DNA from: Ruditapes philippinarum
Lineage: Eukaryota
Direction of reading: 5' to 3'
Assembly: GCF_026571515.1 (NCBI RefSeq)
Contig: NW_026852306.1
Span: forward strand, 62,001 to 126,000
DNA length: 64,000 nt
Positions 13,745 through 52,391 of this stretch are shown one piece after another (within the stretch, counting starts at the first letter, position 1; every line of letters begins with the position of its first letter). Below the pieces are notes generated by a model that was given only the letters and a program-made list of their open reading frames with translations, was not told where the DNA came from and did no database searches. A program made the position numbers and the translations under genes.

Positions 13745-14844
13745 AGAAATCCTCCCTGGCTATTCTAAGCTGTGACTACAATTAGTGTGGTGTGGTACTC
13801 TAATTAAGTCCTAAGTAATTATTATGTTCCGATAAGTTCCGATTGTCATCAGATGACTCTATTTAAAAGCCAAATGTGACGCTTACACTATGACGTCATA
13901 TATATATTTTCAAGTAAGATTTACTGTATATGAAACGATTCATTGTGAAACGAGTTAGTTACGAGGATATAACACTGGCTTGGGCGACATAGAGGGATGT
14001 TTCTACTTAAAAAAAAGTCGGTGCCGTTTGGCCGAGACGATTTGTTTTTGCAGAGACATCCCGAAAAAATCCACATGTGCACCTCTCTCACATAAGGTTG
14101 TGTAGCTCGGGGTCAGATTTATCAGATTTATTGCTTGTAGAACTTCATTAGTTCTACACCCTGGAATATAATGCCACATAATTAATATCACTAAAAAGAT
14201 GGTGTGTATCTATAAAACTAAATACAATATAACAATATTTGCACTCATATTTGATTTTGTCTCACGATTTTAGACCGAGTACACAAAATGATCATTCTTT
14301 AGTTATATACTATTATTTCAATTTTAATGTATGGCGTACAAAAAGTCTCAAAAGACTTCAAAAGACAAGCTCGCAATGAAATTTATATCTTTATAATTCA
14401 TACTCATGGTTATTCAGGAAGTGCGTAAGACCAATGGTATCTGTAGTAAATTAAGTTTTGTTCATTCCATTTGCCAATTTAATGTTTGTGGTAACTTATG
14501 ACAGTTATTCAATAATAATTCTTTATATACTAGCAATGAAACGCTTTGATTACTTCAAGCCAAAGCACTACACAGACCATTTATCGGTTACTTTTTAAAT
14601 AGAGATCTGACAAGACGGGTATATTTCATTAATAAGGATTCGTTTGCTACCTCTACTTTAAATATAATATCATTGGGATTAAAAGATAACAACTTTCCAT
14701 TTCCTTTAGTAATTTACTATTTGATTTCATAAATTACAAAGCAATATGTACAAGCACAGTAATAATTTAACATATTCATCTCATTAGATTTATTAAAATT
14801 GTTAAACATAGCACATTTGATATATTTTTGTACGCAGCAAGAGC

Positions 14845-17440
14845 TTAAAATGGTCGCCATGGGACTTCTTTTATCACGTGACCGATTTCATTTTCCTTGC
14901 CGTTTCCAATAGTAACAATATCTATACGATTGTCTGCATTATTTTCGTCATTATCCGAACAAGAATCATCCACCTTACTGTAGCCGGAAGACGAACAGTA
15001 CGAGGAGGTGGTTTCAGATGAAGAAGTGCTTGAGAAGCCAGAAGAAGAGCTGGAATCAAGACTTGAATGCACAAATGATGACGTAAGTTCCGGTAGAGCT
15101 TGATTTCCGTTTAAAATGGGTGAATATCCTGAAAAATTAAATTCTGGCAATGGCGATGTGTTAACTGTGTCATTTGGTCTTAGAGGCGTAGAGAGACGAT
15201 GTGTTTGTCTATTTTGATTGAATACATTATTCACATGTTTATTGTGATTTGTCATTTCCTGTCGTCTGCTTCTCGTGAGGAAAGCCTGGTGTAGATGATT
15301 GCTTAGGGAACCAGTCACTGTATCACTTGTGATTTTATTCCTTGCCAAATACGCCACAGCTTCTTGTGCACATGCCTTGTACCCTGCATTATAGGCAGCA
15401 GCTTCTGTTGCCATGGTAACAGATTGTTGTTGTCGTTGTAGCTGCGACAGATGATACACAGTTAAGTCTAAAATGTCTGCCTTGTCAACCCTTGTCATTG
15501 GAGCAGTCTGGAGATGAAAACAAATCGTTAAATGTTACAAAAGTGTTTGCAAAAAAGATTTTAATGTAAGGTGTGTGATATTTATTGGAAACATATATAC
15601 GTGTTCTGCATTGTTTTGTTCGGTTAACCATCATAGTATACACTCACTTAATAAATATATTTTTGTACAGACGAAAATCTAAAGCTTATTCAGTTCATAT
15701 ATAAATACATATTTGTATATTGAAAAATAATGTTGTCATATATTTGACATCCATTTGCTCGACTTATTAGTGATCGGCGTGGTGATCCAAATGAATGACT
15801 TCCTGAATGACTTCCAAATATATATTGGCGAAACATGGCATGTTTAATCTATGCAATATGTTGACATAATTATAGAGAAAACGTAATGCTTCAAACGTTT
15901 TCCAGAAAAGCAGCTACTAATTAGGAACACTTGCGTGTAAAACTTGATGCTTTGGTTATATTATATTACATTGTGTTGAAAAGTCTGTTCGATTAGCTAC
16001 TTCAGAAATGATATTCGTCTTTTCATTTTTCCCCACTCTAAATATTATATATTTTGAATTTCAATTGTACATGATTGCATGCTGCGTAAAACCGAACACT
16101 TATAAAATTACTTACATTTTCTTGAATAGTCTGTGCGATTAGCGACTTCAGAAGTGATATACTTTTGTTCATTCTTTCTCTTCTCTTCTTCTCCACCATT
16201 GGCTTCCGGATCTGCAAGAAGCATAATTTAAAATACTGTGTATGCACGTTGAAATTCTATTGGGCAAAAACAAATAATTTCAAGCACTAAGAAGCGTTTA
16301 AATTGTCCTATACAATATCTATACGCCCAGCTAAACGTTAAACAACGATAACGACATTGCTGTAGTTCTCCGATATGACTGATAGTAAGCAATAAGTAAG
16401 TTGGGGGAGATATGAATTCTGGTAAAGGGAAATCATTTTGATACTATTTATAGATCTATAATATTATTATATATATGCACATTTGTATAAATGTACTATT
16501 ATGCAGTTTAAAAGTTTTGAAACTACGTTATTTGATAGTACTATTACCTAGTAAAGGTACAAAGTAAAAACTCTACATTAAAGATCACTTAACGAGAAAA
16601 AAAATGTGAAGTACAATTAAACATATAGAAGAGGAGGGACTATTTATGATTTTAAAGCCCTTAACATCTAAATAAATCTTATCCCTTGATTGTTTATTTA
16701 AACATTCATTCAATCGGGAGAAATATTTAGATACCGTAACGGTTGTAAAATATCGCATAGCATTAACTAAGTTCAGAGTATCAGCACATTCCCTAGCCAT
16801 AGAAACTGGGAGATATGATGGTACTCTGAGAGAAAATAGATTATGCAAATGCTGTTCAATGGGAGTTTTAGAATCTGAATATCACTTTCTTCTTGTATGT
16901 CCGTTATACAGAGATCTAAGAATGAAATACTTTAAAGGATATTTTTGCAGATGGCCAACACTGAAGAAATTTGAAATTTTAATGTCGACAAATGTTAAAA
17001 GTAATGTTACCAACTTAGCAAAATATATTTACTTTGCATCAAAGTTACGAAATGACAGGTTATCAAATTTATGATGTGTTAATTGTTGTTATATACTAAA
17101 TTTCAAATTAAGTCTCGTACATTATTTTTACATTTTTTTATCGATGAGTAATTAAAATGTCAGCCAAATACGTCATTATGATTGTATTATTTTTTTCTAT
17201 GAACAATTGAAAATGAAGTCTCGTACGTTATTGTAATTGTAAATTTCCAACAGTATTCATATACCCTGTGTAAACCATTTCTCATGTATTTATGTTGTTG
17301 TTATTGCTATAAACTTTGTAAGTTTAAAGCGGAATAAAGTGTATTGTATTGTATTGTATTGTATTGATTGTACATTAAAAGATAAATACCTTTCTTGCGT
17401 AGGACATATCCTGTGAGTCAGATTTCTTAGCTCCGCCCAT
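14845..17440 (-). CDS. HES-like: Hairy/Enhancer-of-split (HES)-family bHLH-Orange repressor, copy A; exons 17440-17390, 16211-16116, 15507-14845; 269 aa; C-terminal WRPF
   Basis: MGGAKKSDSQDMSYARK|IRKPMVEKKRRERMNKSISLLKSLIAQTIQEN|TAPMTRVDKADILDLTVYHLSQLQ...YNAGYKACAQEAVAYL (Orange)...VPWRPF*. Basic-region proline is diagnostic of HES; GT-AG introns in phase 0. Confidence 0.95.
16583..17370 (+). mobile_element. 5'-truncated LINE (RTE-X-like C-terminal CCHC region plus 3' UTR) in intron 1 of HES copy A, antisense to the gene
   Basis: Reads EKYLDTV...RIALTKFRVSAHSLAIETGRYDGTLRENRLCKCC...ESEYHFLLVCPLYRDLRMKYF...LAKYIYFASKLR*, then AATAAA and a (GTATT)n tail at ~17333-17366. Candidate TSD TACATTAAA at 16574-16582 and 17371-17379. 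Clade assignment from motif memory only. Confidence 0.85.
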
Positions 17441-17850
17441 ATCTATTTAAATTTCTGGTCGTAGTTCTACAATGAAGTAACGTTCCACACGATTTAGATT
17501 TGATTTAGAGAACTAGGTACTTTTCAAGCAGAATTTCAAAATGATTTTGATGTGAAGTTGGATGTGCTGTCTTATTTTATACTTGTGCACTTCAATTCGC
17601 AAAAGCGCGTGCCAAGACTTAAGTGTGCTCTAAATTACTCAAGGATGTCCGTAATTAAAGATAGAATAAATTACTCAATTTGTCAAAACGTTTTGTAAGT
17701 GGTTAATTGGTTCTGATATACGTGTCAAACGTCACAATTACTTCAACTTAATTAGCGGCAGTCTTTAATTTCTCACTTGTGTGGTAACAATAAAATATTT
17801 AAATGTGTGAAAGCACGTGCTGTTATTGAGTGGCCGTAATTAATTGTTTC
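17441..17850 (-). promoter_or_regulatory. 5' UTR and promoter of HES copy A: TATA box, two N-boxes (CACAAG), class C site TGGCACGCGC, distal CACGTG, multiple TAATT sites
   Basis: Inverted homologue of 19735-20137. On the minus strand: TATAAAA (17575-17581), CACAAG (17582-17587, 17776-17781), TGGCACGCGC (17605-17614), GCACGTGC (17813-17820). Confidence 0.75.
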
Positions 17851-19017
17851 GATTTAACACATTCAATAATCAAATTTTAAGTTGAATTTTACATACGTAA
17901 ATGCTTTAAAATTCAATTCAATATTTTATTCGGCAAAAAACATATAAATGTTCATCGCCAATAGAACATATATACAAAAGAGCATACAGAACTTTATTAT
18001 AGTTTAAGTTCAAATTTTTATTACTGTAAACGTTATGATATTGCTTTAAGCATCAAGATATAAAAAGGAGAAAAGTACAATTTCAGTTATATTTAAGAAA
18101 ATAACCTTTAATTATCATATTGTTTCATGATACATAAAAAAATTGCGTAAAATTATATGTTTACTGCTTGAAAACTGATGTTTTACATTCATTTCATTAG
18201 AAAATCCCCATAGTGTACACATGCGCTTGAGTGAATAAAGATGTCTGTCTTTCTGTCTGTCTGTCAAAATTGGTTATATTAACAGAGCATTTTCTGGAGA
18301 ACATACAATACTTCTTAATAAAACAAAAGCATTCATATATTAATATCTACTAATAAATAAGCTCTGTTGTACTTTTGATATTGCAACAGGAGTAAAGAAC
18401 TATTAAAATTTGCTTAAAACTGAATAAATAACTCAACTTTATGTTTTCGTATCCTGTATACACAGTTCGAAAGTAGAGAAGAACGTTTCTAATTAAAATT
18501 TAAACATCATGAAACGGTGAATTCTTTAACACAAATCCCAAAGGGAAGCAACTAAAATTCAGAGCTCATGTTAAAATGCATTGAAGTTACCTCCCTTACA
18601 ATTAAATACGAGTACGTATGTGCATGTTATACTTTGTACATTTTTACAATCACAAATAAGCAAACGCATAGACGTTGCGTCGTAAGGCCGTGCTCTTGGA
18701 ACGAATAAAAGGTCAGTTACTTATGTCATATCATATTACCCATTTAGAGCCATCTTGGTCATATTCTTCAAGTTTGTATACTACTACGTCGTAGAAGAAA
18801 TCGTCACACGGCCTTACCCCAGCTAACATTTGTGTCTGTGTCATTATATTTCTGTGTTGACTAACGAACGAACGCGCGCAAGCACGCACGAACGAACTAG
18901 CTAACTAAATAATAATAATCATCAATCAATGAAGCACAAAAAATGACCTGCTGATAGCTGAATACTTTATATCAAAGATAGATATTATAATGTACTGCAA
19001 TGATAGCAACTTGTAAA

Positions 19018-19379
19018 AGATCCTGCACGTTGTAATTGAGGTTGTATACCACGCGTTAGTAAAATTGTATAATTATTATTTATATAATTATGCTTATAAA
19101 ACAATTTTCAAACATCGAAGAATATGTAAAATATGTACTGCAAATATTTATACACACTTTATGCAATCATTAAAATATATGCATTCATTTCATATTGAAA
19201 AAAAAATGACTTAGACTTTTCAGAAAATAAAGTTTTTATTACGTCCCTTTATTTCCATGAAATGTTAAATTCGGTAATATCTTTATAAATAATGCATTTT
19301 GGAACTTACAAAATTGATAAATCCTAATTTAAGCATCATATTTATGATATAAAACCTTTAAAAATGTGTTACAGAATCT
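19018..19379. mobile_element. TTAA-targeting (Kolobok-like) non-autonomous element; same family as 52392-52722
   Basis: Ends AGATCCTGCA ... TACAGAATCT|TTAA. Internal sequence (ttacgtccctttatttccatgaaatg...ttcggtaata...agcatcatatttatgatataaaa) is shared with the 52.4-52.7 kb copy. Confidence 0.7.
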
Positions 19380-19734
19380 TTAAACTTGTTTCAGCTGCGA
19401 ATTCTGATTATATTTGCAATATTAATGAGTATTATAGAGTTCATACATACACAGCCTAACATTTACATCATTTCTTTGTGAAATATGAAACCAGGGGAAA
19501 ATAAAGTTCCTTCTTAACTATAATTTAGTTGATGGTTCTACTATAATTGTATAATCAAGTTTTACACGCTCTTTTTATAGCATTCCCGCATATACCCTTC
19601 AACTTTAAACTGTAAAGTTATATGTCATGGTTGCTATGCTTGTATTTGACCGGATACTGTATCTTTTTGTAGTATTGTAAAATGTGTAATAACCCCATGA
19701 TGTACGATATGATATCTTCATGTACCTTTGGTAA

Positions 19735-20137
19735 AACAATTAATTACGGTGACCTATGAAAAACACGCGTTTTCACACATTTAATTATTTTATTATTACC
19801 ACAAGTGAGAAATTAAAGACTGCCGTTTGTTAAGTTAGGTAATTGTGAAGTTTGACACGTATATCAAAACCAATTAACCACTTACAAAACGTTTTGACAA
19901 ATTGAGTAATTCAATCTTTCTTTAATTACGGACATCCTTGAGTAATTTATAGCACACTTAAGTCTTGGCACGTGCTTTTGCGAATTGAAGTGCACAAGTA
20001 TAAAATAAGAGAATTCCGAACCTGACCTCAGAATCAATTTGATTTACTGCTTTAAAAGTATCTTGTTATCTTAACCAAATATTAATCGTTTGGAAAGTTA
20101 TTTTACTGTAGAATTACGACTAGAAATTTAAATAAAT
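19735..20137 (+). promoter_or_regulatory. Promoter and 5' UTR of HES copy B
   Basis: CACGCG 19764-19769, CACAAG 19800-19805 and 19993-19998, TGGCACGTGC 19966-19975, TATAAAA 19999-20005. Aligns with the copy A promoter. Confidence 0.75.
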
Positions 20138-22062
20138 ATGGGCGGAGATAAGAAATCAGACACACAGGATATGTCCTACGCTAGAAAGGTATTTATATCT
20201 TTAACTCATGATTCAAGTGATACAGTTTTTTTTATAGATGTTAAAATTTTTAAATTTATTAATCTTCTTCTTTTCTAAAATATGATTTTCCTCTTTAAGT
20301 GAGCTTTAATGTTTGGTATTAATCACAGTATCTTTACTCTTTCCTCTTTCTTTAAAACATTAAAATTATTTTATATTTCTGTCTAATAATAACTAAATAT
20401 CTATTAATATTGCATTTTCTTTTCAGGACTTTACAACAGGAACATATATATTGTAAAATATTATTTTGTAAACCCCTTATGTATTTTATTATTACCTGGG
20501 TGAATAAAGATATTTGATTTGAATTGAATTGAACTAGGTAGTAATTATATCAAATGACGTATTTTCAAAACTTTAAAGCTACATTAATATATTATGTATA
20601 TTATACTACATTTGTATATAAAAATATATATATATGTAGATCTATATACAGTATTAAATGATTTTCCCCAACCAGAATTTCATATTCCCCCCCACCAAAT
20701 TCTTATTGCGAAATAGCTTACTATCAGCCATATCTAAGAACTACTGGCAATAGGGAATTCTCAGGTATTGGGTACACACGCTCTATGTTTTTGGGGTTTT
20801 TTTTGCAGATCCGGAAGCCAATGGTGGAGAAGAAGAGAAGAGAACGAATGAATAAAAGTATATCACTTTTGAAGTCGCTAATCGCACAGACTATTCAACA
20901 AAATGTAAGTTATAATGATATAATTGTTCGGTTGAACGTAGCTTGTAATCATGTACAATTGAAATTCAAAGTATGCCATGTTTCGCCGTTTACGTTTGAG
21001 CCTGATCCCCTCAGGATCAGTCATTCATTTGGAACACCACGCGGATCCTCAGGAAGTCATTCATTTGGAACACCACGCGCATCCTCAGAGAGTCATTCAT
21101 CTGGAACACCACGCGGATCCTCAGGAAGTCATTCATTTGGAACACCACGCGGATTACCAATGAGTTGCCAATGGATGTCAAATTTGTAAAAATATTATTT
21201 TTCGGTATATTTAGATATGAACTGAATAACCTTTATATATATTTATTATGTATATACTAAGATTTTTAATCAAAGAAATTAATACAGAATCAGTAAATAT
21301 GTTTCGAATAAATATTACAAACCTTATATTCAAATTTTCAAACATATATTAAGAATAACACTGTTGTAAAATTTATCGTTTTTTGTTTTTCAACTTCAGA
21401 CTGCTCCAATGACAAGGGTTGACAAGGCAGACATTTTAGACTTAACAGTCTATCATCTGTCGCAGCTACAACGGCAACAACAATCTGTTACCATGGCAAC
21501 AGAAGCTGCTGCCTATAACGCAGGATACAAGGCATGTGCTCGAGAAGCTGTGACTTATTTGGCAAGGACTAAAATCACGAGTGATACAGTGACTGGTTCC
21601 GTAAGCAATCATCTACACCAGGCTTTCCTCACGAGTAGCAGGCGACAGGAAATGACAAATCATAATAAACATGGGAATAATGTGTTCAATCAAAATAGAC
21701 AAACACATCGTCTTTCTACGCCTCTAAGACCAAATGACACAGTTAACATATCGCCATTGCCAGAATTGGATTTATCAGGGTATTCACCCATTTTAAACGG
21801 AAGTCAAGCTCTACCGGAACTTACGTCATCATTTGTGCACGGCAGTCTTGATTCCAGCTCTTCTTCTGGCTTTTCAAGCACTTCTTCAATTGAGACCACC
21901 TCTTCCTACTGTACGTCTTCCGGTTACAGTCAGGTGGATGAAACTTGTTCGGAAAATAACGAAGACGATATAGAAAATTATATAGACGTGGTTTCTATAG
22001 GAAAAGGTAAAGAAAATGAAATCGGTCATGTGATAAAAGAAGTCCCATGGCGGCCATTTTAG
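20138..22062 (+). CDS. HES-like: HES-family bHLH-Orange repressor, copy B; exons 20138-20188, 20809-20904, 21400-22062; 269 aa; C-terminal WRPF
   Basis: MGGDKKSDTQDMSYARK|IRKPMVEKKRRERMNKSISLLKSLIAQTIQQN|TAPMTRVDKADILDLTV...WRPF*. Same exon sizes (51/96/663 nt) as copy A. Confidence 0.95.
20205..20533 (+). mobile_element. LINE-like 3' UTR/tail insertion in intron 1 of HES copy B
   Basis: Segment has no counterpart in copy A. It ends AATAAA-gatatttgatt-(TGAAT)n immediately before homology with the copy A intron resumes (ctaggtagtaattatatcaaat). 5' boundary approximate. Confidence 0.55.
21004..21155 (+). repeat. 36-bp minisatellite, 4 copies, in intron 2 of HES copy B
   Basis: Unit ggatcctcaggaagtcattcatttggaacaccacgc. 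A single related copy lies in copy A intron 2 (~15772-15818, minus strand). Confidence 0.95.
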
Positions 22063-23280
22063 ACTTTCGTATCAGTTTTCTTGCTGAAAAGAATATACCA
22101 AATGTGCTATGTTTATTAATACTAATATTTTTATAACATTAATATGTTAAATTACTACTGTGTTTGTATATGTATGGAATCATTGAGTAAATTCTAAAAG
22201 AAATAGAAAGTTGTTATCTTTTTATCCAAATAATATAATGTTTAGAAGTAGTATAAGAATTATTGTTTAAATTAATGAAATATACCCGTCTTTTCAGAAA
22301 TAATAGATAAATGATCTACGCTGTGCATTGGCTTGAATTAAACAAAGCCTTTTATAATGCTAGAATATAAAGAATTCTTAAAATAGTGACATAAGTTACC
22401 TTTAAATTCAAATTGGCAAATGGAAAGTACAAAATCCCATTTACTAGAAATAACATTGGTCTTACGCACTGTCTTGAAAAATCATACTTTAAATATAAAA
22501 TTCTAGTATATGATTATGCTCATATTTCGTATTTGGTCGAAAATCGTCAGGCATATTTAACGATGAGTTCAGATATTATAATGTTGACGTATAATGTAGT
22601 TTTATACGCAAGAGCTGCTCATAAACACCTAAGTGTTTTAGTGATACTAATTATGTGATAATACACGTGTAATAAAATATGTGGAACTATGCAAGACAAA
22701 ATTTGATTGAAAACGTATAATTGTATATTCTTACACGCTTCACACTATTTCCCCTAAGCAACAGATTGTGCAATGAAGAGCATAATTACACGATATATGC
22801 ACAGCATAACAAGGGAATGCTTACACGTCATGTGGAGATTTTTTAAAAAAAACTTAAAGACCTAAGTCCTATAACATTCGGGTCCGCAAATTTCATATTT
22901 TTAAATTTTGCAATGAATTCCCACAAAGTGTTATTGTTGTATTCACGAACAAACCTATTCGGCAATTTCCGTCATAGTTCGAGAGCGGGTTTTTTTTAAT
23001 ACAGTTTGATTCAATTCAATTCAATTCTTTATTCAGCATATGAAAATTATATGTTCGTCGCCATTTATCATGGTGACGGCGGTTACCACGTTTTCCAACC
23101 AACCGCCATCTAACCGGTGCAACGTAAGAATACAGTTTAATGTTAACATAACACTTGTGGCATGTTGCAGGTTTTAGTTAATTTTATTTTTACATATTTG
23201 ATTTTTTTTAGATGATATTATAGTCATTATATTGAGGTATATATTAATTTTATTTTCCAGCTCTCAATAGAAGTAACATA

Positions 23281-23495
23281 TGAGCCGCGCCATGACAAAA
23301 CCAACATAATGGGTTTGCGACCAGCATCCGCGCAGTCTGATCAGGATCAATGCTGTTCGCTATCAGTTTCTCTACTTGCAATAGGGTTGGAAAGCGAACA
23401 GCATGGATCCTGATCAGATTGCGCGTATGCGCAGAATGGTCTGGATCCATGCTGGTCGCAAACGCACTATGCTGGTTTTGTCGTGACGCGGCTCA
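23281..23495. mobile_element. Palindromic MITE (TGAGCCGCG...CGCGGCTCA family)
   Basis: Whole-length imperfect inverted repeat (tgagccgcgccatgacaaaaccaacata ... tatgctggttttgtcgtgacgcggctca). Second copy at 31880-32099. Confidence 0.9.
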
Positions 23496-23583
23496 GTTGT
23501 TTTATGTGTATGTCAACTATAAAAATATTATATAGCACACCATAGCATCGCATGGCGCAGCAAAGCATAACATTAACGTAACG

Positions 23584-26688: not shown

Positions 26689-26767
26689 CGTAAAGTTCGC
26701 TTTTTAACACCCGCCGTTTAATTAATAACAAATGAAAACCGGCGGGTATTAAAAAACGAACTTTACG
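26689..26767. repeat. 28-bp inverted repeat (hairpin) with ~23-nt loop
   Basis: cgtaaagttcgctttttaacacccgccg and cggcgggtattaaaaaacgaactttacg, 2 mismatches. Confidence 0.9.
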
Positions 26768-27516: not shown

Positions 27517-29223
27517 ATGAACAAAACCAATGTTACAGGCGGTGCAGCCCCCGGTCCCGGTGTTGGCATACAACTTGACGATGAGGATGACTTTGCCGAA
27601 CGGGATGTAGATAAATGGAACAATGTGCAGAAAATCGTCGTGGTAAGTGTATCTTTAGAGTAGTCATCTCTGCTTATTGACCAAGCCCCCTATTGCATTT
27701 ATATAACATATTAATCAGGCATTGGTAACCAAACTTTGACATTCAATTACTTTAGAATATATTTGAAGCTTTGCACCTCAGCATACAATCATAAAAATGC
27801 TATTTATTCAAGTTAAAGAAATGGAAATAATGAAGAGAATTCCTTTTTTTCCATATCAAAATATATAGTTAGGAGCACAGACGTCACATGATGATGAAAG
27901 TCATATGACGTAACGTCGAAATTCAAATGTAAATATCGGCCGTTACATAGAAAATCAATCGTCATTTTTTCCCTTTCTGTTTTATTTTTAAATTTTCGTA
28001 CCTACGTTCGTTATTGTTTGTCAAAAAATATCAAAATTATACAAAATAATGAACAATAAATTCAAAGCCTAAAAAATATAAAATATCAAAATATTGATAA
28101 AATTGTTTGTGATGGCAGGGATCTCTGTACTAATAAGGGAAGATAATTACGTAGGAGATAATATTCTACGCTTAATGCTGGATTCCAAATGACCAATCAA
28201 ACTAGGAATAACTTTAAATGGAGCACTTTAAATTTTAAAGAACTATTTTCTATGCTGATCCTATTTTATGTGTTCTATTTTTAGATTCTTTATGACGTGA
28301 ACATTGCATTTGCCATTATCCAATCAGTGATAGGCCTACTTCTATTCCTCACTATCCTTGACAAGAACCTGCGGGGAAAATCACAAATGTGGTACCTGTA
28401 TCACTTGACGTTACTCGTTATTTTCACCGGACTTTTTCTTCACCCATTTGCACACGGTGAGAATTATACAAAGGACAAACAGAGTTGTTACTTTTTGATG
28501 TACAGTGCGGAGTATATCTTTTTTGGTGTAGGGATGAACGTTATTCTAGTAAATTTGGAAATATTTTTCACAAAGATTCTTACGCTTCAGAAATGGGAGT
28601 CTAACCCGTTCTACAGATTTTTAATGTCGATGGCGCTCGGGTGGCTTATCGTCTGTATGATTATTTCCCACGTGATTATCAATAACAATTATGGAAGTCA
28701 GGACAAATACAAGTTCTGTTTTGTCCTCAAAGACCTATCAGTTCGACGGGCAAGAATTGTCTTTCGCGCTCTCATACCGGCAATCGTCTGCTTCCTGTTT
28801 TTAATTTGCACCGTAGTTACGTATTACCTGAAACGGTCACGGATCACTTTTACGACAATGACTGGTGAGTTGAAGGAAATCCGGACAGAGAGCCGCGACG
28901 ACGAATCACAATGGCTTATGTGTCAAGTCTTCATAAACATTGTGTATTTGACTCGAGCACTAACCATTGTGGCTTTACACTTCAACGGTATCATACGTAC
29001 TCCGGATGAATATTTAGTTGTTGTATTTGTTATATTTGTTCATGTACAAACACTGTACACTTTACCATTCTGCATGTTTTTCATTTACGACGTGCGCCAG
29101 TCACTGAAATGTCTCCTACTCAAGGTCATACAAAAATTGTCGTTTGGTAAACTAAGGGTAGGAGATGACTTGGAGAATCTGGCTGTAAGTTTTGGAAACC
29201 CATCCCATGTCGGGACCGATTAG
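27517..29223 (+). CDS. Divergent rhodopsin-like (class A) 7TM receptor; exons 27517-27642 and 28285-29223; 354 aa
   Basis: N-terminus MNKTNVT with two N-glycosylation sequons; seven hydrophobic segments; ICL1 KNLRGK..W.YL..L; TM3 Cys (QSCY) and ECL2 Cys (KFCF); TM4 Trp; TM5 Pro (LIPAI); helix-8-like DVRQSL. DRY and NPxxY are degenerate (EIF, LPFCMF). GT-AG phase 0 intron. Confidence 0.8.
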
Positions 29224-30764: not shown

Positions 30765-33700
30765 ATGTACCCGGATATAGAACCGTTTTCGACTGGGATG
30801 TTAAAAGTGTCTGAACTTCACAGTATCTACTATGAGGAGTCCGGAAATAAAGATGGCAACCCAGTTGTTTTTCTGTAAGTACATTTTAAAACAGATTTAC
30901 AATCCATTAATCATATTACAAATTATGATAACATTTTCGCAATTTATCTTTTTTAATTAAGTTAAATATATTTAAAGTTTCTATTTATTTGAAGTTTCTA
31001 TCAGTAGAGCACCGATCAATATAAACCGTCATAATACCATTTGTTTTTAAATTGCAGTTTAATTGCAATTAATTCCTAGGAATAAGTTGCATTTACTACA
31101 ATGTACATGTACACAGTTTTAGAAAATAATGGGCAACAATCCCTTTTTACAGCTTAATTCTGTTCGGTCTGTTCCGTCATATTTCGGTAAAATACGTACA
31201 GACACAAAATGATATCAGACGAAATGATATTATATTTATCGTCTGGTAACTTATAATTTATTCAACAACTTGTCCCTATTTTATGACCAGGTCAAGATAC
31301 TGTACATGTTTGATTAGTACCTATTTATACAATCAATGTACATAATCTTAATGATACAAATTTCACAGCGTTTATGTGGGGGACTTTGAAGCACATATTC
31401 ATATTAAACCAGTATTTAGTTGGGTTTTTTATTAAGAAGAAAAATCCAAACAAATATGTTTGTTCAATATTTGATACCCTTTATATACAAAAATAAGGAT
31501 TTTTTTTTACAAAAACAAGAAGTTCAAATGTGTATAAAAACTTGTACGTTGTCAAATGCATATTATTTGAAATTGATTTTGTAAATGATAAAACATTTCT
31601 TTTTAATTATTGACTCTTCGAGCATGTAACCAAATCCTAAATATTAATGATCTTGACTTTTTAGAAAATTTCGCTGGTAATTAAAACTGTACATACTGCA
31701 TATACTAAAATATGCATAGGTAATTGATATTCATTTTAATTTTAATAAGAGTGCATATACAACATGCAGTAATATAGCAAATAATGAACAAGTGAAATAA
31801 TAATTACAATGTAATATCATCATTAAACAGACATAAACTAATATACTTGTAACATGTGAGTTAAGAAACAAAACACATTTGAGCCGCGTCACGACAAAAT
31901 CAACATAGTGGGTTTGCGACCAGCATGGATCCAGACCAGTCAGATCAGGATCCATGCTGTTCGCTATCAGATTCTCTACTTGTAATAGCGTTTGTAAGCG
32001 AACAGCATGGATCCTGATCAGACTGCGCGGATGCGCAGGCTGGTCTGGATCCATGCTGGTCGCAAACCCATTATGTTGGTTTTGTCATTACGCGGCTCAT
32101 TTTTTCTCGTATAGGCATGGAGGACCAGGATGGGGTACTACAACTAGAGACCGTACATTTTTCGACCCTAAAGTTTACAGAATTATTCTTATAGACCAAA
32201 GAGGAACTGGAAAATCAACCCCAGCAGCCGAAATAAGAGTGAGCATTATCCAGAAGTAGTTCAAATTTATCGTGTACCAAATCTGAAAAAAAATTATGTC
32301 GGATCTTTCACCTAGCATACAGATTTTTTACTCATAAAATTTGTTTTTACGTCGACCATACCGTCAAGGATAACTATTTACGAGAAAGATATCTTGATAT
32401 TCATAAATGCACAAAATGATAATCAAATGTAGAAAAGAGATAAGAAACCGGTGTCGCGTAAAAATCACGCACTTGTTGATAATTTAATTTCGCGCATGAA
32501 TTTGTTATCTTACTTTCATTATGCATTTTACCTGTCCTGTTTTGAATTTGGAACATTCCATTACAAGATTAAGGAATTTCAATATCAAAGAATAGCCACT
32601 AAGCAGCAGAAATTAAATGGCTAACCAGGGCTGCGTTTCGTGGTGAAACCCTAAGGATAAATCAGATAAAGGAACCTTGTAAGAAATATATCCATGGATA
32701 GGATAACAAATAAAACTATGATTTTTAGGAAAACACAACTTGGGATCTTGTAAATGATATGGAACAACTTAGACAAAAACTCAATATAGATAAATGGGTT
32801 GTATTTGGAGGAAGCTGGGGATCAACTATGGCCTTAATCTATGCTGAAGCACATCCAGATAGAGTGAAGGCCCTTATAATCCGTGGAATTTACACATTTA
32901 GAAGGTGAGTACGAAGGGTAAAACTTCAAATGAAAATTACTTAATGCCGTGTTGCATTGTCATGTTCCGTGCTGCAGAGTCCAATGTCGTGTTGCATTGT
33001 CATATATTGTATCGTATCGTCAAGTGTCGTGTCGTGTTGCTATTTGTTACGTAAAATGCAGAAATCTTATTAATAGACCTCCTTCAACCAAGACGATAAA
33101 TAAGTATTTTCGATACAATGTTTTTGTCGACCATCAATCACCTATTGTCTATGAATCCATGTACCGATGATGTAAATCATTGCGATAAATATGTCCATTT
33201 TGGTTTACTTTTGAACTGGGCTTTACTTATTTCAGGCGGGAACTGGCGTGGTTCTATCAAGACGGAGCAAGTTTTGTATTTCCAGATGCATATGAAGAAT
33301 TTGTGAAGCCGATTCCTGAGGTAATATATCACTAACAGTTCCAATGTTTACAGCAATAGTTGCGGTATGTTTGGTGGCTGATGTACGCCATGCTATTTTG
33401 CATTTTGCCAACTGTGCCGTATCGTTTTGTATTTACATTCTCGACGCGAACAAAAGCAGAAGGATGACAAAATCAGACAAAATACGACACATATAGCGTG
33501 TCTTTTATTCGTATTGCATCTTCCGTGTCTTTGTTTTTTCGCGGCAAAAATGCAACAATACAAAAACACGAAGAAACGACAATCAAACTTTGTCCTGTTT
33601 TCACTTTTAACGTTTTTTCCTTTATTGCATTTCCGCTTTTCGTTGCACATTTACATTTTTGTATTTTTGCTTTTATTAGTTTGATATACTAAAGTATTTT

Positions 33701-38657: not shown

Positions 38658-40561
38658 CTATTCTTTTGACAGACCTAGTGTTTTTTCATACTCTTTAAGC
38701 TGTTCAACAAAACCTGCATTAGGTCGAGCCGATGGTCGTTTACTTTTCACATACGAAAAGGCATCTTCGTATGTCATTTTTTCCGTTCTCATAAGATATC
38801 CGGTTGTGAACGTAGATGCCCTACTAACACCGGCATTACAGTGTAGGAACACGCAACCACTTTGTCTACCTTCGTCAATGAACTTGAAAGTGTCATCGAA
38901 ATAGCTAAGAACTTTTGTATCAGGTGTGTCATTGACCTTGACATTCAGGTATTTGAGTTTGTCTGGGAAATAGTTTTTCACATACGTTCCTATGTTGACG
39001 ATGTGCGTAACTCCATATCTAGCAAGAATATCCCACTCGGCAGCCACATCTTGTGAGCCTGTAAAAAAAGACAAATAAAGCTATCTTTATAAAGAATTTA
39101 AGAGTTGGAATTAAACATTTTAAAAAGTACATACATTGATTTGGCCCTTTCAAGTCCATAAATCTACAAGCCAGTTCAACAAAGGAAACCAAGATATATT
39201 GGTTGCTTATGATTTGCATAGCCTAGGCAAAAACAAATAAAACAGTAAAACTTACTGAATAAAGATACAGAAATATAATGTCAATGCAAGCTTTGCCATT
39301 TAAAAGGGACATAACTCTATAAAACGTGATGGAACAGATTGAAATTATCTGAAACTCTGAAATACATAATCAAGCACAAATATACTAGTGATACACCTAG
39401 GATTGATCTATTAACGAAAATCCCGAAAATGAATTAAGAAAAATAATGATTTTGCAGTAATATCACATAGACAACCAAATATTAATGACTATTTTCACAT
39501 AGGTCCCTTGCACATGCTCAGGTGAATGATAAATGCATATTCTTTTTTTTCAATGCAATGAAAACACATAAAAGTCATTGAAATTAATCTACTGCTGGAT
39601 TATTTTATTTAAGCACAAACTGACAAACTTGTAGCAACATTTACCAAAACTTAGATTGACCATTAAGATCAAATTAGTTTAATCCCTGAAAACTTGACAT
39701 TGATATCAAGACCTTAAAAGGTCTCAAAAATTTATAACATCTTATCTGTTAAATAAAAATTTTGCCTTATAATTTAATGAAGTAAAAAATAAAATCTTAA
39801 CTTACCAAATATGAGATTGTCTCTGATTTCCCCAACTTGAAAGTCCATTAGGACGTCCGCTACAAACCCATACTGGTCTCGGTTAGTGACCTCTGTTCTG
39901 ATGTTTCCAGAGTCATCCTTATACTCCCGTATAACTCTACCATCCTCTGTTCTTACAGCTGTGTCTGAAATAGAAGATGTACTCTGAAATGGAATATTTA
40001 CTCTTAATCATGTCTGAAATACATGCTTACTCTTAATCGTGTCTGAAATATAGTATTTACTTTTAATGATTAGATGACCTTATGTAATATATTTACTCTA
40101 AATGATATTACAAATGAAATATTTACTCTAAATATTGTCTGAAATAGAATATTTACTCTAAATAATATCTTAAATAGAATATTTATTCTCAATAATGTCT
40201 GAAATAGAGTCTTCCACTTATTTATCTTTTTAAAAATATGACTTTTTTACTCATTAAAAATAACAATTAATAATAATTATTATCATTCTCCATTTTAATT
40301 GTTGTAAATGCAAAGTTTCAGATAATATGAATTATTTGTATGCTTGTTCTTTATAGTAGGTAGTTATTTCAGACAATCACAAGTCATTTTATATGCAAGC
40401 TTTGAAGTTTGCAATTATATAAATACTGGTTATAACTACATGTACTTGCTTAGCAAAAAATATTACTAGCAATATACAATAATGATTTTCATACAGTAAG
40501 TACCTGTTTTGCGCAGCTGTTTCTTGTTAAAACTCTGCAACTGTGACAAGAGACTTGACAT
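38658..40561 (-). CDS. DUSP19: Dual-specificity protein phosphatase 19 orthologue; exons 40561-40504, 39964-39806, 39058-38658; 205 aa
   Basis: MSSLLSQLQSFNKKQLRKTDTAVRTEDGR...YGFVADVLMDFQVGEIRDNLIFGSQDVA...VTHIVN...DTPDT...VFLHCNAGVSRASTF...RPSARPNAGFVEQL. Collinear with vertebrate DUSP19 (GYVQDLSSDLQVG...LLLGSQDAA; HCNAGVSR). Phase-1 GT-AG introns. Confidence 0.93.
39964..40212 (-). repeat. ~30-bp tandem repeat abutting the DUSP19 exon acceptor; units contain TTTCAG|A
   Basis: tctgaaa at 39964, 39983, 40013, 40042, 40138 and 40198, within a gtctgaaatagaatatttactctaaataat-like unit. Confidence 0.9.
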
Positions 40562-45624: not shown

Positions 45625-48330
45625 TTATTTCAGACAGTATACGTCTGCTTTGTCTGAACGACGCTCCGTCAAAACGAGGAATGACCCATCATCTCGGTTT
45701 GAAATATGGATGTGTTGCGGGCGTGTCAATCCGAGATCACGTGACAGAATCGTCATCACAGAAGCCCCGCCCTCTGATAACATGAGGACATTTGCAGAAC
45801 GGATGGCAGTGACATATACATTATCTTCCCGGTCGACAGCTGTACTATAAGGACGATCAAGCTCTTTATGCGTGAACACGTACAAAACATCACCTCGAGT
45901 TGACATCCGCACAAGAGACCCTTTAGTCCCAGACTGGCCCTCGCAGCAGATGTAGAGCACGTGATCTGTTCTTGAACGAGTAACTGATACAGGTCTCAAG
46001 ATATTAGGATTTTCCCTGGAAGCAAAGTTGACCACTTGAAGCTCTCTGCCATTGTCGTCAAGAAAGGCCACTTGGTTCCCATCATCTTTTGTTGTCACAA
46101 CAAATTTTCCGTCAACAATGGCGATTCCCCAACATTCACGTCGTGTAACTATGCATCTTTGTGTACTCATTGATGACCCAATAACACGAATGACATGAAT
46201 TGTCTTCTCGAGCGGAACCGTTACAGCAATTTCATTTGAAGATAAACATGCGACATTCCACGGTTCCTTTGCCATATCTAAATGGCTTACATATGAAAAC
46301 TCGTGATTGAAAAGTTTGACGCGACTGTTGTTACAATCGATTAGAATAAGTCTTTTATCAGGAAGTTCAACGGAGCCAGTAATTGTGCATTCTCTTATGT
46401 CTCCTTCAACCTTAATAACCACACTTTTCAGTTTAGTGCATTGTTTCGGCGTAGTGTTGCTACTTGTTATTGGTTCAAATGTTAATGTTTTTGAATTACA
46501 CTTGTTCTGAGCTGAACAGGCGGAGTAAATGGAAGAATTTTCGTAAAGTGGCGACGCAGGGTTATCGTCAGCTTGTGTTGGTCGGAATAAACGAGCGAGT
46601 TGATTGATGGCAGACGAAACGATAGGTTTTACTTCGGGGCTCATGCTTGATGCAGATGAAGATCTATGACGAAACAGAAATTTCGTATTTCCATTGGCAC
46701 TCTCATCATTTTCAGCACGTTCAGACATACGCTTACTACTAGAAATGTCACCAACTCCCGACATTACATTAACATAATGCCAGACACGGTTCTTTGGTTT
46801 TTCACTTGTTGGAGGTTTAGTCAAAGCTCCGGGTAATGTCTTTGCCTCAACGTCACCGGGTGTTTCGCAGCCGTTTATTCCAGCGGCATCTTGGTTGGAG
46901 TTTGCTTCACTTTGACCAGTTGAAAATACCGAATCTTCGTCATCACTCAAATCAACAACATTTTCCTTTGCTTCGTTTGTTGGCGCAATATTGATCTCCG
47001 TATTGTGACTATAGTCTTGGTTTCGTTTAGGACTCGAGCATGATCTAGGCAGAAAGTGACGTATTCCATGGATATCTGGCCGTTCAGGACGTGGTCGGAC
47101 TACCGGTGTTGGAGCAGTGGACTCAATAGGCACGGTTTTTGGTCTCTTTGGCTCTTTATGCGCGCGATGTGGTCTTTGTTCCGTATTTGTTCCAGACTGG
47201 CTCGAAGTTGCGTCATTTAATGTTGGACGCGCTATTATTATCGCTCGTGGCGAAACATGACGTATAGGCGATCGTGAAGGGAGGTCATCAGCAGAAACGT
47301 CTCGAGGTGAAGGGATGAATGACTCGTTCAGAGTATTGCCCCTTGACATTAATTCTGGGGGTACCTTCAAGTTTGATTCAAAGTGATTTACGTTGACACT
47401 TCCTAGTTTACTAAAGGAGTTTAGAAAGGCAAGTAGTTCATTTTCAATGGCAAATTCTACTTTGATAACTTTTATATTTGAGTGACACCCGTGTATGAAA
47501 GATGATTGACTTTTGATGTCATTCTCGATCGTTGAGATCATCTCGAACGATTGTGACGAGACAGGAAGCTCACTTAATGTTTTTCCTGACGTTTCTATCT
47601 CCGCCTTTATCCGCTCGTATTTTTCACATTGAGCTTTCAAAACAACAACTTCTCCGTCGTGCTGTACATTAACTTGATCTTTGATGTCAGTCTCAAAGGA
47701 ATTAAGCAACGCTTCTACTTTCCCGCGAAAATCTTTTACTTCCGTCATAATGGACGTCTTTTCAGTAGACAATTGCTCTATGTTCGACTTCAGATGCAAG
47801 ATGGCATCATTTAGATAAACTAGTAGGTTTTCTACGTCAGTCTTGACGATTGTGAATCTGGTTGTGAATTCAGCGTGCTCTTCAATGTCGAGAACTTCGC
47901 ACTGGCGATGTGCATTTTTGAAACACTTGCTGCACAATTTGACATTGTGTTCGACACAGAAGAATTCAATCAGTTTGCCTGCATGCTCTGCACAACGTTC
48001 AACAGCTGTCGGAGTTTCGCGTTTTTCGAGCATTTCATGGAAGCTTGAGTCAAGCAACGAGACAAGCAAATGGTTCAGCGGGAACAAAGTAGACCAGGTG
48101 TCAATGCGGGTAAAGGCGCGTGGTGCAGGTGTTTGCGCTCGACAAACTGGACATGGGAAGTCGGACACTAAGACCCTCTCACGTGACTTGTTGACGATGT
48201 ATGAATGAAGGCAGGATTCACAAAGTGTGTGTTGGCATGGTAACATGCGAGGTGTCTTGTATATGTCCATACATATTGGACAGCATAAAATGTTGTCCTG
48301 TGGAGAGTGACTTGACTTCGTGGTAGCCAT
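45625..48330 (-). CDS. Single-exon-CDS TRIM E3 ligase (RING, B-box2, coiled coil, ~300-aa S/P-rich linker, NHL-like beta-propeller), TRIM2/3/56-like; 901 aa
   Basis: RING CPIC...LPCQHTLCESC...CPVC; B-box CAEH...FCVEHNVKLCSKC...HRQC; heptad-rich region; C-terminal repeats (LILIDCNNSRVKLF, PWNVAC, CWGIAI, RPVSV, RPYSTAVDREDNVYV). Acceptor tttcAG about 35 nt upstream of the ATG. Confidence 0.92.
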   Translation of the reverse strand: MATTKSSHSPQDNILCCPICMDIYKTPRMLPCQHTLCESCLHSYIVNKSRERVLVSDFPCPVCRAQTPAPRAFTRIDTWSTLFPLNHLLVSLLDSSFHEMLEKRETPTAVERCAEHAGKLIEFFCVEHNVKLCSKCFKNAHRQCEVLDIEEHAEFTTRFTIVKTDVENLLVYLNDAILHLKSNIEQLSTEKTSIMTEVKDFRGKVEALLNSFETDIKDQVNVQHDGEVVVLKAQCEKYERIKAEIETSGKTLSELPVSSQSFEMISTIENDIKSQSSFIHGCHSNIKVIKVEFAIENELLAFLNSFSKLGSVNVNHFESNLKVPPELMSRGNTLNESFIPSPRDVSADDLPSRSPIRHVSPRAIIIARPTLNDATSSQSGTNTEQRPHRAHKEPKRPKTVPIESTAPTPVVRPRPERPDIHGIRHFLPRSCSSPKRNQDYSHNTEINIAPTNEAKENVVDLSDDEDSVFSTGQSEANSNQDAAGINGCETPGDVEAKTLPGALTKPPTSEKPKNRVWHYVNVMSGVGDISSSKRMSERAENDESANGNTKFLFRHRSSSASSMSPEVKPIVSSAINQLARLFRPTQADDNPASPLYENSSIYSACSAQNKCNSKTLTFEPITSSNTTPKQCTKLKSVVIKVEGDIRECTITGSVELPDKRLILIDCNNSRVKLFNHEFSYVSHLDMAKEPWNVACLSSNEIAVTVPLEKTIHVIRVIGSSMSTQRCIVTRRECWGIAIVDGKFVVTTKDDGNQVAFLDDNGRELQVVNFASRENPNILRPVSVTRSRTDHVLYICCEGQSGTKGSLVRMSTRGDVLYVFTHKELDRPYSTAVDREDNVYVTAIRSANVLMLSEGGASVMTILSRDLGLTRPQHIHISNRDDGSFLVLTERRSDKADVYCLK

Positions 48331-49359
48331 TCGAAGTGTATTGAGCTACGTCTAAGACATCTATCTGAAAGGAGATTGAAGATCGGGTGAGCGGAAAGAT
48401 ATCATTGATAAAGTGGAATAAAGATATGCTGTAGTGGCCACTTAATTTACATGTGACATACAAATATTTGCTTATATTAAACTATTATTCTGTGCCAAAT
48501 CATATCTTGCCTTGCAGATCAAAATTTAATATTATTTTTATATTTGTGCAGATAAATACATGTAGAAAATTATACAATGATTTAGTCGTACTCAGTAAAA
48601 AGTTAGAAGTGATAATAACGTCATAATCGACGCCATATTTGAACAGGAACGAAAGGGCATTGTAGTGTAATCGTATTATTTTTATTCTATCTCTTCTAGT
48701 TTTTAACCGAAATGATTCGGCATTAATTTTTAATTGTTGAAAGATATTTGGTTAGAGGTAAGATTTTGGTAAAAGCGATAAACGTCTTTGCTCATATAGC
48801 TTTTTGTAAGGCAAGACCAAAATTGCTAAATTGTAAATAACCTTAAGATAAGTCGTATTTACTCATTTGTTCCTTTTTCTACAAATTGCTTATACATATG
48901 CTTTATTATTTTGCTCCCCTCGCCGCCGGTTAAAACATCAATATAATTTTATTTCGTTTCCTTCACAGAGCATGTTCGTTACATAACGTATAATTCCCGC
49001 AAAACTTTTATTGATTATTTCTTTGAAGGTACTTCCATCGAGTGAATTCAATGTTAGGGGATATTTTCTGATGCCCTTAATTATGCGCGCGACATCATGC
49101 TAAGCACAAGTTGTATGATATTGATTTTCATGTCAAACAAAGCGGCAATGGGATTTTTTTTTGTATTTCATTAGTCAATACTGTTGATAATGAGACAGAC
49201 AGATGTTAACAGGCATTTCAGATATATTAAAATGTATTACCATTTTTTGCCATATGATTCACCAAAAAGATTTAGATGTGAATTATACGCTTTATTTGTG
49301 ATTGATAAGTAACTATTTCTAGATATGTCAACAATGTGTGCCTAATTATAATATATTAA

Positions 49360-50940: not shown

Positions 50941-51175
50941 GCACGTGACGTAATATCGTCTGCGAGTAAATATGGGATATTGTCCGAGAATGTCTCGTAG
51001 CAGTTCTCGTGAGACACGCGAAAATATTCCAATAATTTGCATAAAAATAAGGAGCAAATTGCGCAGACGAATGAGTCATGATTAGGGGATGCATTGCGTG
51101 ATGTTACATTGACTTCCAGCTTGTAAACAAGTACGAGTAAGCGCTATAAATAGACTAGAATCAGGGTCGATAATC
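50941..51175 (+). promoter_or_regulatory. Candidate inducible promoter/enhancer (dense transcription-factor motif cluster ending in a TATA box)
   Basis: GCACGTGACGTAAT 50941-50954, CCAAT 51029, TTGCATAA 51037, TGAGTCA 51072, GTAAACA 51123, TATAAATA 51145. CpG-richer than the flanks. No coding exon identified downstream. Confidence 0.4.
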
Positions 51176-52391
51176 TGAAGCAGTTGCCAGGCCAAATCAA
51201 ACAAAGAGATATTGAAAAGTAGTTCTAGAAATAAAGGCAAAAGATAGGACATTCATAATAGATCACTTGGTTCTTTATGATTGGTTTTGTTTTTAATTTC
51301 AGTGACAGGAATTTGAAATTTGTCATTAGTTACTTCAAATGAACATATTTGTTTTATATTAGAGATAAACTATTTTAGTAAAAAAGGACAACAAAACGCC
51401 TATCCATACGTTTGGTCACTGAACTTTAAGAGTGGGGAGATATTTATTTCTTAGATAAATGTATTGAATATTTGTGTAACAGAAAGAAGACAACTCGTAT
51501 TGCCATGAATGCTTTAACTTGTTTTTAGATGGGTTTTTTTTTGTTTGTTTACAAACATATAAAATTAGCGCATCGACCATTTATGATGTAAACGAGGAAA
51601 ATATCTTAATCGTTTGTATATACTAAACGATAAAATTAGACCTTTACGAATATAGATAAAAGTTTTTTATTCAGAGTTAAAAATATATCTTATTTCACTA
51701 TTCCTCCGCAACAAATTATAAAAGATGAACACTTCGGTTTTCTTTTTCTGTTCTATATCTTATAGGCCGAATGATATGATAAGCAGCCAAGCTGATAAAA
51801 ATCGTTTAAAGTTGTATTGTACTTTATTAGAACACGGGAATAGTTCAATATCTTAAAGGAACGTGTTTCAAATGTGAAATAATAATGAAGATTTCCATGG
51901 TTTTCAGTTTTCGTGACAACCTATTTTGTGAGCAGTCAATTTTCTATAAATTTGGTGCATATTTGCTCATTAAAGCAGGGATTTACATCACTTTCTATTT
52001 CCAGGCGTTTAAAGGATGCATGTTTTGTTATTAAAAGTGATCCAACTATACTAACTCAAGGTGTCCAACCTCTGCTTCATGGTGTCCAACAATTTATTAA
52101 AGCAGCCCAAATTCTTTACTAAACCAAAGTATTTACTTCTAATTTCTTATATAACAAACACTTGTTTACTACAATTTTTTATGGAGTTCAGCAAGATTTA
52201 AGGCAGTAATTTATGTTTTATGCATCCACTCGAACGCATCCAAGTAGGCTTTTTAGGGATATATTGACGCAGGATCCTACATTCATTAAATATAATCTTT
52301 ATATGGATGTTCGCATTTGTCGATGAGTTCAAGGAATAAAAAAAAACATTTTATACCGGACGCTATGTAATAATCTAACAAATAAACTTAA

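What the first reader, a model, noticed from the sequence alone, without database searches (positions are those of the whole stretch)
17575..20005. Conserved HES auto-repression architecture with reciprocally swapped class B/C sites
Seen: each promoter has an N-box (CACAAG) directly abutting the TATA box, a second distal N-box, a proximal TGGCACGYGC and a distal CACGYG. Copy A is proximal CACGCG / distal CACGTG; copy B is proximal CACGTG / distal CACGCG. Substitutions at both positions stay within HES-bindable space. Established: Hairy/E(spl) proteins bind N-boxes and class B/C sites (TGGCACGTG, GGCACGCG), and Hes1/Hes7 oscillate through such negative autoregulation. Inference: a self- and cross-repressing pair, potentially an oscillator, in an unsegmented animal.
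Basis: partly seen in the sequence, partly recalled or inferred. Interest (0 to 1): 0.7.

Follow-up and report, generated by a model that had tools for sequence, protein, structure and literature searches.

The report
Duplicated clam Hes genes, shared promoter
Two back-to-back copies of a clam Hes repressor gene share a promoter because one was duplicated from the other; that promoter is strongly conserved and likely lets Hes proteins damp their own genes, but the N-boxes and the "swapped" sites are recent and vary between clams, and nothing here shows an oscillator.

Summary
They lie in the promoters of two head-to-head HES genes of a venerid clam (gene B matches an NCBI Ruditapes philippinarum protein), made by an inverted duplication (dS 0.195). 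A 200-bp block before the TATA box is constrained: 5% A/B difference against 21-24% in introns. The named architecture is not what is conserved. Among 8 paralogous promoters the TATA N-box occurs in 2 of 8, and the distal N-box and distal CACGYG in 2 of 7. In other clams, A-type contigs carry proximal CACGTG, a broken distal box or a broken N-box, so the "reciprocal swap" is unfixed variation on copy A. What holds is a class-B CACGTG within 450 bp of the ATG in 13 of 13 HES promoters tested, including a distant bivalve relative (background 10%), beside invariant ETS-, NK- and CSL-like words. HES self- or cross-repression through these E-boxes is likely (about 0.55) and is a textbook Hes mechanism; other CACGTG binders are not excluded. 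An oscillator is unsupported. This clade ends in WRPF instead of WRPW.

The parts
14845..17440 (-). HES gene A: coding exons 17440-17390, 16211-16116, 15507-14845; bHLH + Orange; ends WRPF
   Evidence: GT-AG introns, open frame
20138..22062 (+). HES gene B: coding exons 20138-20188, 20809-20904, 21400-22062; ends WRPF; exon 3 is 100% identical to an NCBI 'enhancer of split m3 protein-like' protein of Ruditapes philippinarum
17574..17776 (-). Constrained proximal promoter block of A (CSL-like word to TATA box)
   Evidence: 5.4% difference to B, 15-25% to other paralogs, against 34-39% in the introns compared
19805..20006 (+). Constrained proximal promoter block of B
   Evidence: 125 of 202 columns invariant in 8 paralogs
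17582..17587 (-). N-box CACAAG abutting TATA of A; only in A and B among 8 paralogs; reads CACAGG in one A-type contig of another clam
19993..19998 (+). N-box CACAAG abutting TATA of B
17605..17614 (-). Proximal HES-type box of A, TGGCACGCGC here (class C); CACGTG in another A-type contig
19966..19975 (+). Proximal HES-type box of B, TGGCACGTGC (class B); likely the ancestral state of the clade
   Evidence: loose ends
17719..17724 (-). Middle E-box position in A: CACGTA here, CACGTG in all 6 other paralogs (lost before the A/B duplication)
19856..19861 (+). Middle E-box position in B (CACGTA)
17770..17776 (-). Candidate CSL/Su(H) site GTGAGAA of A, overlapping the 'distal N-box'; single site, not a paired SPS
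   Evidence: RTGRGAA in 6 of 7 alignable paralogs, broken in the pseudogene; label from recalled consensus
19805..19811 (+). Candidate CSL/Su(H) site of B
17776..17781 (-). Distal N-box of A; not conserved outside A/B
19800..19805 (+). Distal N-box of B; not conserved outside A/B
17814..17819 (.). Distal CACGTG of A; A-specific, reads CACGTA in a 124x A-type contig
19764..19769 (+). Distal CACGCG of B with poor flanks; CACGYG in 0 of 5 other alignable paralogs
19930..19939 (+). ETS-like word GGACATCCTT (A: 17641-17650); in 7 of 8 paralogs and, inverted, in both distant-bivalve promoters
   Evidence: label from recalled consensus
19878..19884 (+). NK-homeodomain-like word CCACTTA (A: 17696-17702), invariant in 8 of 8 paralogs
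   Evidence: label from recalled consensus
17850..19733 (.). Unique spacer between the arms, with a dispersed repeat at 19016-19384; two separate promoters, not one compact bidirectional promoter
22100..22109 (+). 3'UTR 10-mer shared by the WRPF-clade copies (A: 14809-14818)

Best explanation
The region holds the promoters of two head-to-head HES genes that arose by an inverted duplication and inherited one constrained 200-bp promoter module, in which class-B E-boxes likely let HES proteins repress their own and their paralogs' transcription, while the N-boxes and the B/C swap are recent, unfixed sequence variants. Shown: gene structure, duplication, constraint on the block, which words are and are not conserved, variation at the named sites. 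Inferred: the module is switched on through ETS-, homeodomain- and possibly CSL-type sites; HES dimers bind the proximal TGRCACGTGC box about 25 bp before the TATA box (and, in other paralogs, the middle CACGTG) and would recruit Groucho through the WRPF tail, giving negative feedback that limits or sharpens a pulse of expression. A and B lost the middle box before they split; the N-boxes and A's distal CACGTG are at most incidental replacements.
For: Duplication: inverted arms across both genes; dS 0.195, dN/dS 0.30; A+B sister, 99/96. Constraint: block difference 0.054 for A/B against 0.21-0.24 in introns and 0.22 in the 5'UTR; 0.14-0.25 to other paralogs against 0.34-0.39 in the introns compared. 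E-box: CACGTG within 450 bp of the ATG in 13 of 13 HES promoters, about 5 lineages by the tree; 10.4% of 490 background tiles; 0 of 300 shuffles reached the count in the 6 promoters with 2-3 copies. C15194 has the perfect TGGCACGTGCCA, named as the E(spl) optimum in PMC1950541 (passages). Purine next to the core in 13 of 14 clam half-sites (hand tally; P 0.004 against the 56% background). Basic region aligns with human HES1 and keeps the proline and E..R residues. WRPF on Runx1 still binds TLE3 and represses (PMC13043292, passages). N-boxes and swap.
Against: No binding or reporter data. The proximal core is intact CACGYG in only 4 of 8 assembly paralogs and needs 5 parsimony steps, in the fastest quarter of core 6-mers, so constraint on it is loose. 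The distant-bivalve boxes show no purine-flank bias (4 of 8 half-sites, hand tally). CACGTG is also bound by Myc/Max, USF, Clock/Bmal and Hey (recalled), and no set of non-HES promoters was available as a control. The distant promoters have no RTGRGAA within 450 bp (0 of 2), so Notch input is doubtful. The variant A-type contigs could come from an unassembled third copy rather than alleles, and their letters were assigned by summing depths. A and B jointly gained two N-boxes, which chance alone gives at only P 0.07-0.10.
Confidence: 0.6

Rival explanations
1. The E-boxes are inputs for other bHLH factors (Myc/Max, USF, Clock/Bmal, Hey), not for HES feedback; the module is an activation module for early-embryonic or rhythmic expression.
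For: The best-conserved box is TGACACGTGT (1 step in 8 paralogs), and the distant promoters carry C-flanked boxes. The invariant neighbours look like activator sites. Class C and N-box words, which are more HES-specific, are the least conserved.
Against: Purine flanks in 13 of 14 clam half-sites and a perfect HES-optimal palindrome in C15194; CACGCG stands at the proximal site in two intact genes; self-repression is established for Hes1 and Hes7 (PMC1950541 section 18).
Confidence: 0.25
2. One reading: a selected N-box plus reciprocally swapped class B/C design makes A and B a tuned cross-repressing pair that oscillates.
For: All motifs are present; both N-boxes arose on the A/B stem while the middle E-box was lost; only 2 of 490 tiles hold two N-boxes plus two B/C sites (these may be the two promoters themselves, not checked). 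Introns of 0.5-1.2 kb could give some delay.
Against: N-boxes in 0 of 6 and 0 of 5 paralogs at those places; both swap changes map to A; A-type contigs in 3 of the 4 runs laid differ at one of the named sites. No shared canonical instability motif in the 3'UTRs: a Pumilio-type word in 3 of 6, no K-box near the stop, no Brd, GY or miR-9-type word. No time-course data.
Confidence: 0.07
3. The A/B likeness at the named sites is passive inheritance plus gene conversion between inverted arms, and the HES-like words have no function; only the ETS-, NK- and TAATTA-type words matter.
For: 74% of core 6-mers are identical in A and B; about 11 differences where about 18 are expected from paralog scaling, P 0.055; B-type contigs of 3 runs differ from A at 6 places in 17570-17660 where the window's B differs at 2.
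Against: CACGTG in 13 of 13 HES promoters across lineages that do not align with one another.
Confidence: 0.08

Closest known systems
Vertebrate Hes1/Hes7 negative autoregulation (N-boxes, class C site, paired CSL site)
   Same: HES bHLH-Orange repressor (E 7e-12 to human HES1, PDB 2mh3) with HES-type boxes close to its own TATA box.
   Different: The conserved boxes here are class B CACGTG, not N-boxes; one CSL-like site, no paired site; tail WRPF; no data on half-lives or cycling. The paralog on C916, not this pair, has the Hes1-like layout.
Drosophila Enhancer of split bHLH genes (class-B binders in a paralog cluster)
   Same: Clustered paralogs; proximal box close to the optimum tggCACGTGcca given in PMC1950541 (passage).
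   Different: These genes have two introns; no shared K-, Brd- or GY-box near the stop in the 3'UTR stretches scanned; orthology was not tested and is poorly resolved for mollusc Hes genes (PMC5381572 passages).
Lineage-specific tandem Hes clusters of lophotrochozoans (oyster, limpet, Platynereis)
   Same: Recent paralogs in clusters; PMC5381572 and PMC8166818 (passages) report 5-11 Hes genes per mollusc, tandem duplication and early-embryonic expression of oyster clusters.
   Different: The passages seen do not analyse promoters and do not mention a WRPF tail; Platynereis Hes1-10 have a third intron that these genes lack (PMC4172395 passage).
Ancient repressor-site plus SPS architecture upstream of deuterostome Hes genes (Rebeiz et al. 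2012)
   Same: Recalled: stable bHLH-repressor sites in Hes promoters, also of unsegmented animals, against rapid turnover of other sites.
   Different: Only the title was seen, in a reference list; the paper is not held, so this comparison is a lead, not a test.

Membership tests
HES (hairy/E(spl)) bHLH-Orange repressors | bHLH domain with proline in the basic region | tested here: met
   Pfam HLH above cut-off on exon 2 of B; alignment to HES1 keeps the proline
HES (hairy/E(spl)) bHLH-Orange repressors | Orange domain | tested here: met
   PF07527 above cut-off in A and B
HES (hairy/E(spl)) bHLH-Orange repressors | C-terminal WRPW | tested here: not met
   Both end WRPF, as do venerid relatives; distant relatives end WRPW. 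A variant: WRPF binds TLE3 when put on Runx1 (PMC13043292)
HES (hairy/E(spl)) bHLH-Orange repressors | Groucho-dependent repression | not testable with these tools
   needs a binding or reporter assay
Hes1-type N-box autoregulatory promoter | Multiple N-boxes conserved in related promoters | tested here: not met
   2 of 8 and 2 of 7 paralogs; N-box in 6 of 13 HES promoters against 38% of background tiles
Hes1-type N-box autoregulatory promoter | Paired CSL site (inverted, 15-19 bp spacer, PMC3285341 passage) | tested here: not met
   single RTGRGAA in A and B; a paired site is present only at C916
HES self-repressed promoter (any site class) | Enriched, conserved class B/C sites near the TATA box | tested here: met
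   CACGTG in 13 of 13 promoters; position kept in the clade, core letters variable
HES self-repressed promoter (any site class) | HES occupancy and repression through those sites | not testable with these tools
   EMSA, CUT&RUN or reporter needed
Hes ultradian oscillator | Short mRNA and protein half-life, delay, cyclic transcription | tested here: inconclusive
   only 3'UTR motif scans were possible; the two RNA runs laid gave no usable expression signal

The most novel reading that the evidence does not exclude
A bivalve Hes clade with a WRPF tail runs a family-wide, cross-repressing feedback circuit whose binding sites are turning over right now in clam populations (class B to class C, N-box gain and loss), and this circuit produces Hes1-like ultradian pulses in an unsegmented spiralian embryo or in the mantle edge.
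Probability: 0.07. Interest if true: 0.65.

Novelty: new member of a known kind. Interest (0 to 1): 0.28.

Why it matters
Hes self-repression is textbook in vertebrates and flies; finding its likely sequence signature in every Hes promoter examined in a clam extends it to molluscs and gives a defined 200-bp module for reporter tests. The paralog series and population variation make a neat natural case of binding-site turnover. It does not show a new regulatory design, and Hes1 cycling is already reported outside segmentation (cultured cells, PMC1950541 section 18; neural progenitors, abstract of PMC4103481 in a search listing), so lack of segments would not by itself be the surprise.

Tried and rejected
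Exact promoter pattern scan of metagenome contigs: 0 matches; the protein-based scan gave 7 loci, of which 2 (L041, L042) were read for promoters and 5 short ones were not. No relatives of this genome are held, so true orthologous promoters in sister venerids could not be read. No RNA holder was listed. The first tree had wrong exon coordinates for L041 and L042 and was redone. A single bidirectional promoter was rejected: the TATA boxes are 2.4 kb apart with a unique spacer. A paired CSL site in A/B was rejected on orientation and spacing. The C7910 GTGGGAA variant was given little weight: no HES exon was found on that contig, so it may be a dead fragment. Promoters of C7299_47k (insertion in the 5'UTR) and C15518 (poor sequence downstream) were left out of the 13-promoter count; both hold the middle CACGTG. 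Earlier findings of the scan: none returned. Literature: searches listed no promoter study of a bivalve Hes gene and no HES with WRPF (6 papers hold the word, by title 1 of them biological, on Runx); the library lacks most subscription papers, and no supplements were read.

Full report
Observation. All eight motifs are present at the stated places, and TGGCACGYGC occurs only twice in the window, once per promoter. The region lies between two divergent genes. Inverted repeats run across both genes. Each has three coding exons with GT-AG introns, a bHLH and an Orange domain, similarity to human HES1 and the end WRPF. Exon 3 of copy B is identical to an NCBI protein named enhancer of split m3-like from Ruditapes philippinarum. 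The TATA boxes are 2.4 kb apart with a unique spacer.

Why the two promoters look alike. A and B are sister copies (99/96) with dS 0.195 and dN/dS 0.30; introns differ at 21-24% of aligned sites and the 5'UTR at 22%. The 202-bp block from GTGAGAA to the TATA box differs at 5.4%, so it is constrained or partly homogenised. Because 74% of its 6-mers are identical in A and B, sharing a hexamer between the two copies carries almost no information.

Footprinting with paralogs. The genome search gave 12 exon matches and 9 promoter matches; 8 promoters were aligned, and the ninth (C7910) is a partial orphan. Against paralogs at dS 0.56-0.66 the block still differs at only 14-25%, and 125 of 202 columns are invariant. 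Invariant words include TTTGAC, CCACTT, AAACGT and ACATCC (0 steps each). A middle CACGTG stands in 6 of 8 (lost in A and B). RTGRGAA, a CSL-like word by recalled consensus, stands in 6 of 7 alignable rows and is broken in the pseudogene. The proximal box keeps its place and flanks, but its core reads CACGTG (2), CACGCG (2), CATGTG (2) and CACTTG (2). At the proximal site B matches the nearest paralog, and at the distal site B shares the C of 4 of 5 others, so both swap changes map to A. Both are C/T transitions that make or remove a CpG; 4 of 6 transitions of CACGTG stay in a strict HES set.

Variation in other clams. Contigs of 4 runs from 4 studies were laid on the A promoter; 69 rows of the letter table and 44 pieces were not shown, so this is partial. 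Assigning letters by depth sums: a gap-free A-type contig in X5 (7.2x) has proximal CACGTG, beside another (14.1x) identical to the window; an A-type contig in X12 (124x) has the distal box broken to CACGTA; an A-type contig in X6 (11x) has the TATA N-box broken to CACAGG. Reference-like proximal A contigs also occur in X12 and X15. These may be alleles or an unassembled third copy; either way the reciprocal pattern is not a fixed property of the pair. Loose ends show C7299-type sequences with an intact proximal CACGTG in all 4 runs, and a C15518-type CACTTG in 1.

What is general. In 450 bp before the ATG, CACGTG occurs in 13 of 13 HES promoters tested: 6 of this clade, the hairy-like C916, C15194, three C7256 genes and two promoters of a distant relative that groups with a Dreissena protein. 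Background is 10.4% of 490 tiles; shuffles expect 0.03-0.16 per promoter; in the 7 promoters with a single copy the shuffle P is only 0.06-0.15 each. N-boxes occur in 6 of 13 against 38% of tiles, so they are not enriched. Flanks in the clam favour purines (13 of 14 half-sites, hand tally, P 0.004), as in the E(spl) optimum (PMC1950541, passages and section 18); the distant promoters do not (4 of 8). GGACATCCTT is shared, inverted, with the distant promoters; single 10-mer sharing is not significant by itself (P 0.11 for B with L041). No control set of non-HES promoters was available.

Mechanism. Shown: duplication, constraint, pattern of conserved and variable words. Inferred: activators bind the ETS-, homeodomain- and CSL-like words; HES dimers bind the class-B boxes near the TATA box and recruit Groucho. 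WRPF is compatible with that: on Runx1 it keeps TLE3 binding and represses, more mildly than WRPW (PMC13043292, passages). The bHLH-Orange parts of A and B differ at 2% of non-synonymous sites, so any self-repression would also be cross-repression. An oscillator needs short half-lives and delay; nothing here measures them, 3'UTR scans found no shared canonical instability motif, and the RNA runs were uninformative.

Relation to what is known. Tandem Hes expansions in molluscs are in print (PMC5381572, PMC8166818, passages), as is Hes expression in a chiton (PMC8429573, abstract start and passages) and in Platynereis (PMC4172395, passages). Self-repression and cycling outside somites are known for Hes1. 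The listed searches showed no bivalve Hes promoter study and no HES with WRPF. Factor labels for CSL, ETS, NK and T-box words are recalled consensus, not tool results.

Verdict. A real, constrained promoter of a duplicated, annotated Hes gene with a likely but ordinary feedback site; the special architecture and the swap do not survive comparison. Interest 0.28; new member of a known kind.

Noticed in passing
G000:C916, about 50,950-51,150 (minus strand; L025): The hairy/Hes1-like paralog has a paired CSL-like site (CGTGGGAA, 16 bp, TTCACATG) about 30 bp before its TATA box, plus GGCACGAG and GGCACGTG: the Hes1-type layout in a clam, and a better oscillator candidate than the pair in this window.
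   Followed up: partly
window 14848-14859 and 22048-22059; paralogs; G000:C15194: C-terminal WRPF in all 6 intact genes of this clade, in Mercenaria relatives, in Dreissena (WRPFEL) and also in C15194, which falls outside the clade in the tree; C916, C7256 and L041/L042 keep WRPW.
   Followed up: partly
window 14809-14818 and 22100-22109: 3'UTR 10-mer AAATGTGCTA about 30-60 bases after the stop in all 7 clade copies with fetched 3' ends and nowhere else in the fetched DNA; a likely microRNA or RNA-binding site (recalled resemblance to a miR-29-type site, unverified).
   Followed up: partly
L041 5200-5400; L042 1200-1430: Distant-bivalve promoters hold three CACGTG boxes, a T-box-like AGGTGTGA and the inverted GGACATCCTT word.
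   Followed up: partly
L037 (G000:C7910:218831-218960): Orphan partial copy of the promoter block with GTGGGAA and the middle CACGTG, cut off before the TATA box; no HES exon found on that contig.
   Followed up: no
G000:C7299:39400-41900: Pseudogene copy with stops in exon 3; its promoter has lost the CSL-like word.
   Followed up: partly
window 16676-17074: 132-codon open frame in intron 1 of A that looks like the end of a LINE element; high read depth shows it is a dispersed repeat; no Pfam hit.
   Followed up: partly
window 21019-21162: 36-base unit repeated four times in intron 2 of B; a single unit in A.
   Followed up: no
window 23275-23501, 31875-32105, 26689-26767; 19016-19384 with 52390-52727: Palindromic MITE-like repeats and another dispersed repeat.
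   Followed up: no
window 28285-29223, 31909-32259, 38658-39080, 45625-48345: Neighbouring frames: a hydrophobic GPCR-like frame, a proline-iminopeptidase-like exon and a RING/B-box (TRIM-like) frame by eye, and a dual-specificity phosphatase (Pfam DSPc).
   Followed up: no
window 17570-17660 against 19920-20010: The window's B differs from A at 2 places here, B-type contigs of 3 other runs at 6: possible gene conversion between the inverted arms in this haplotype.
   Followed up: partly
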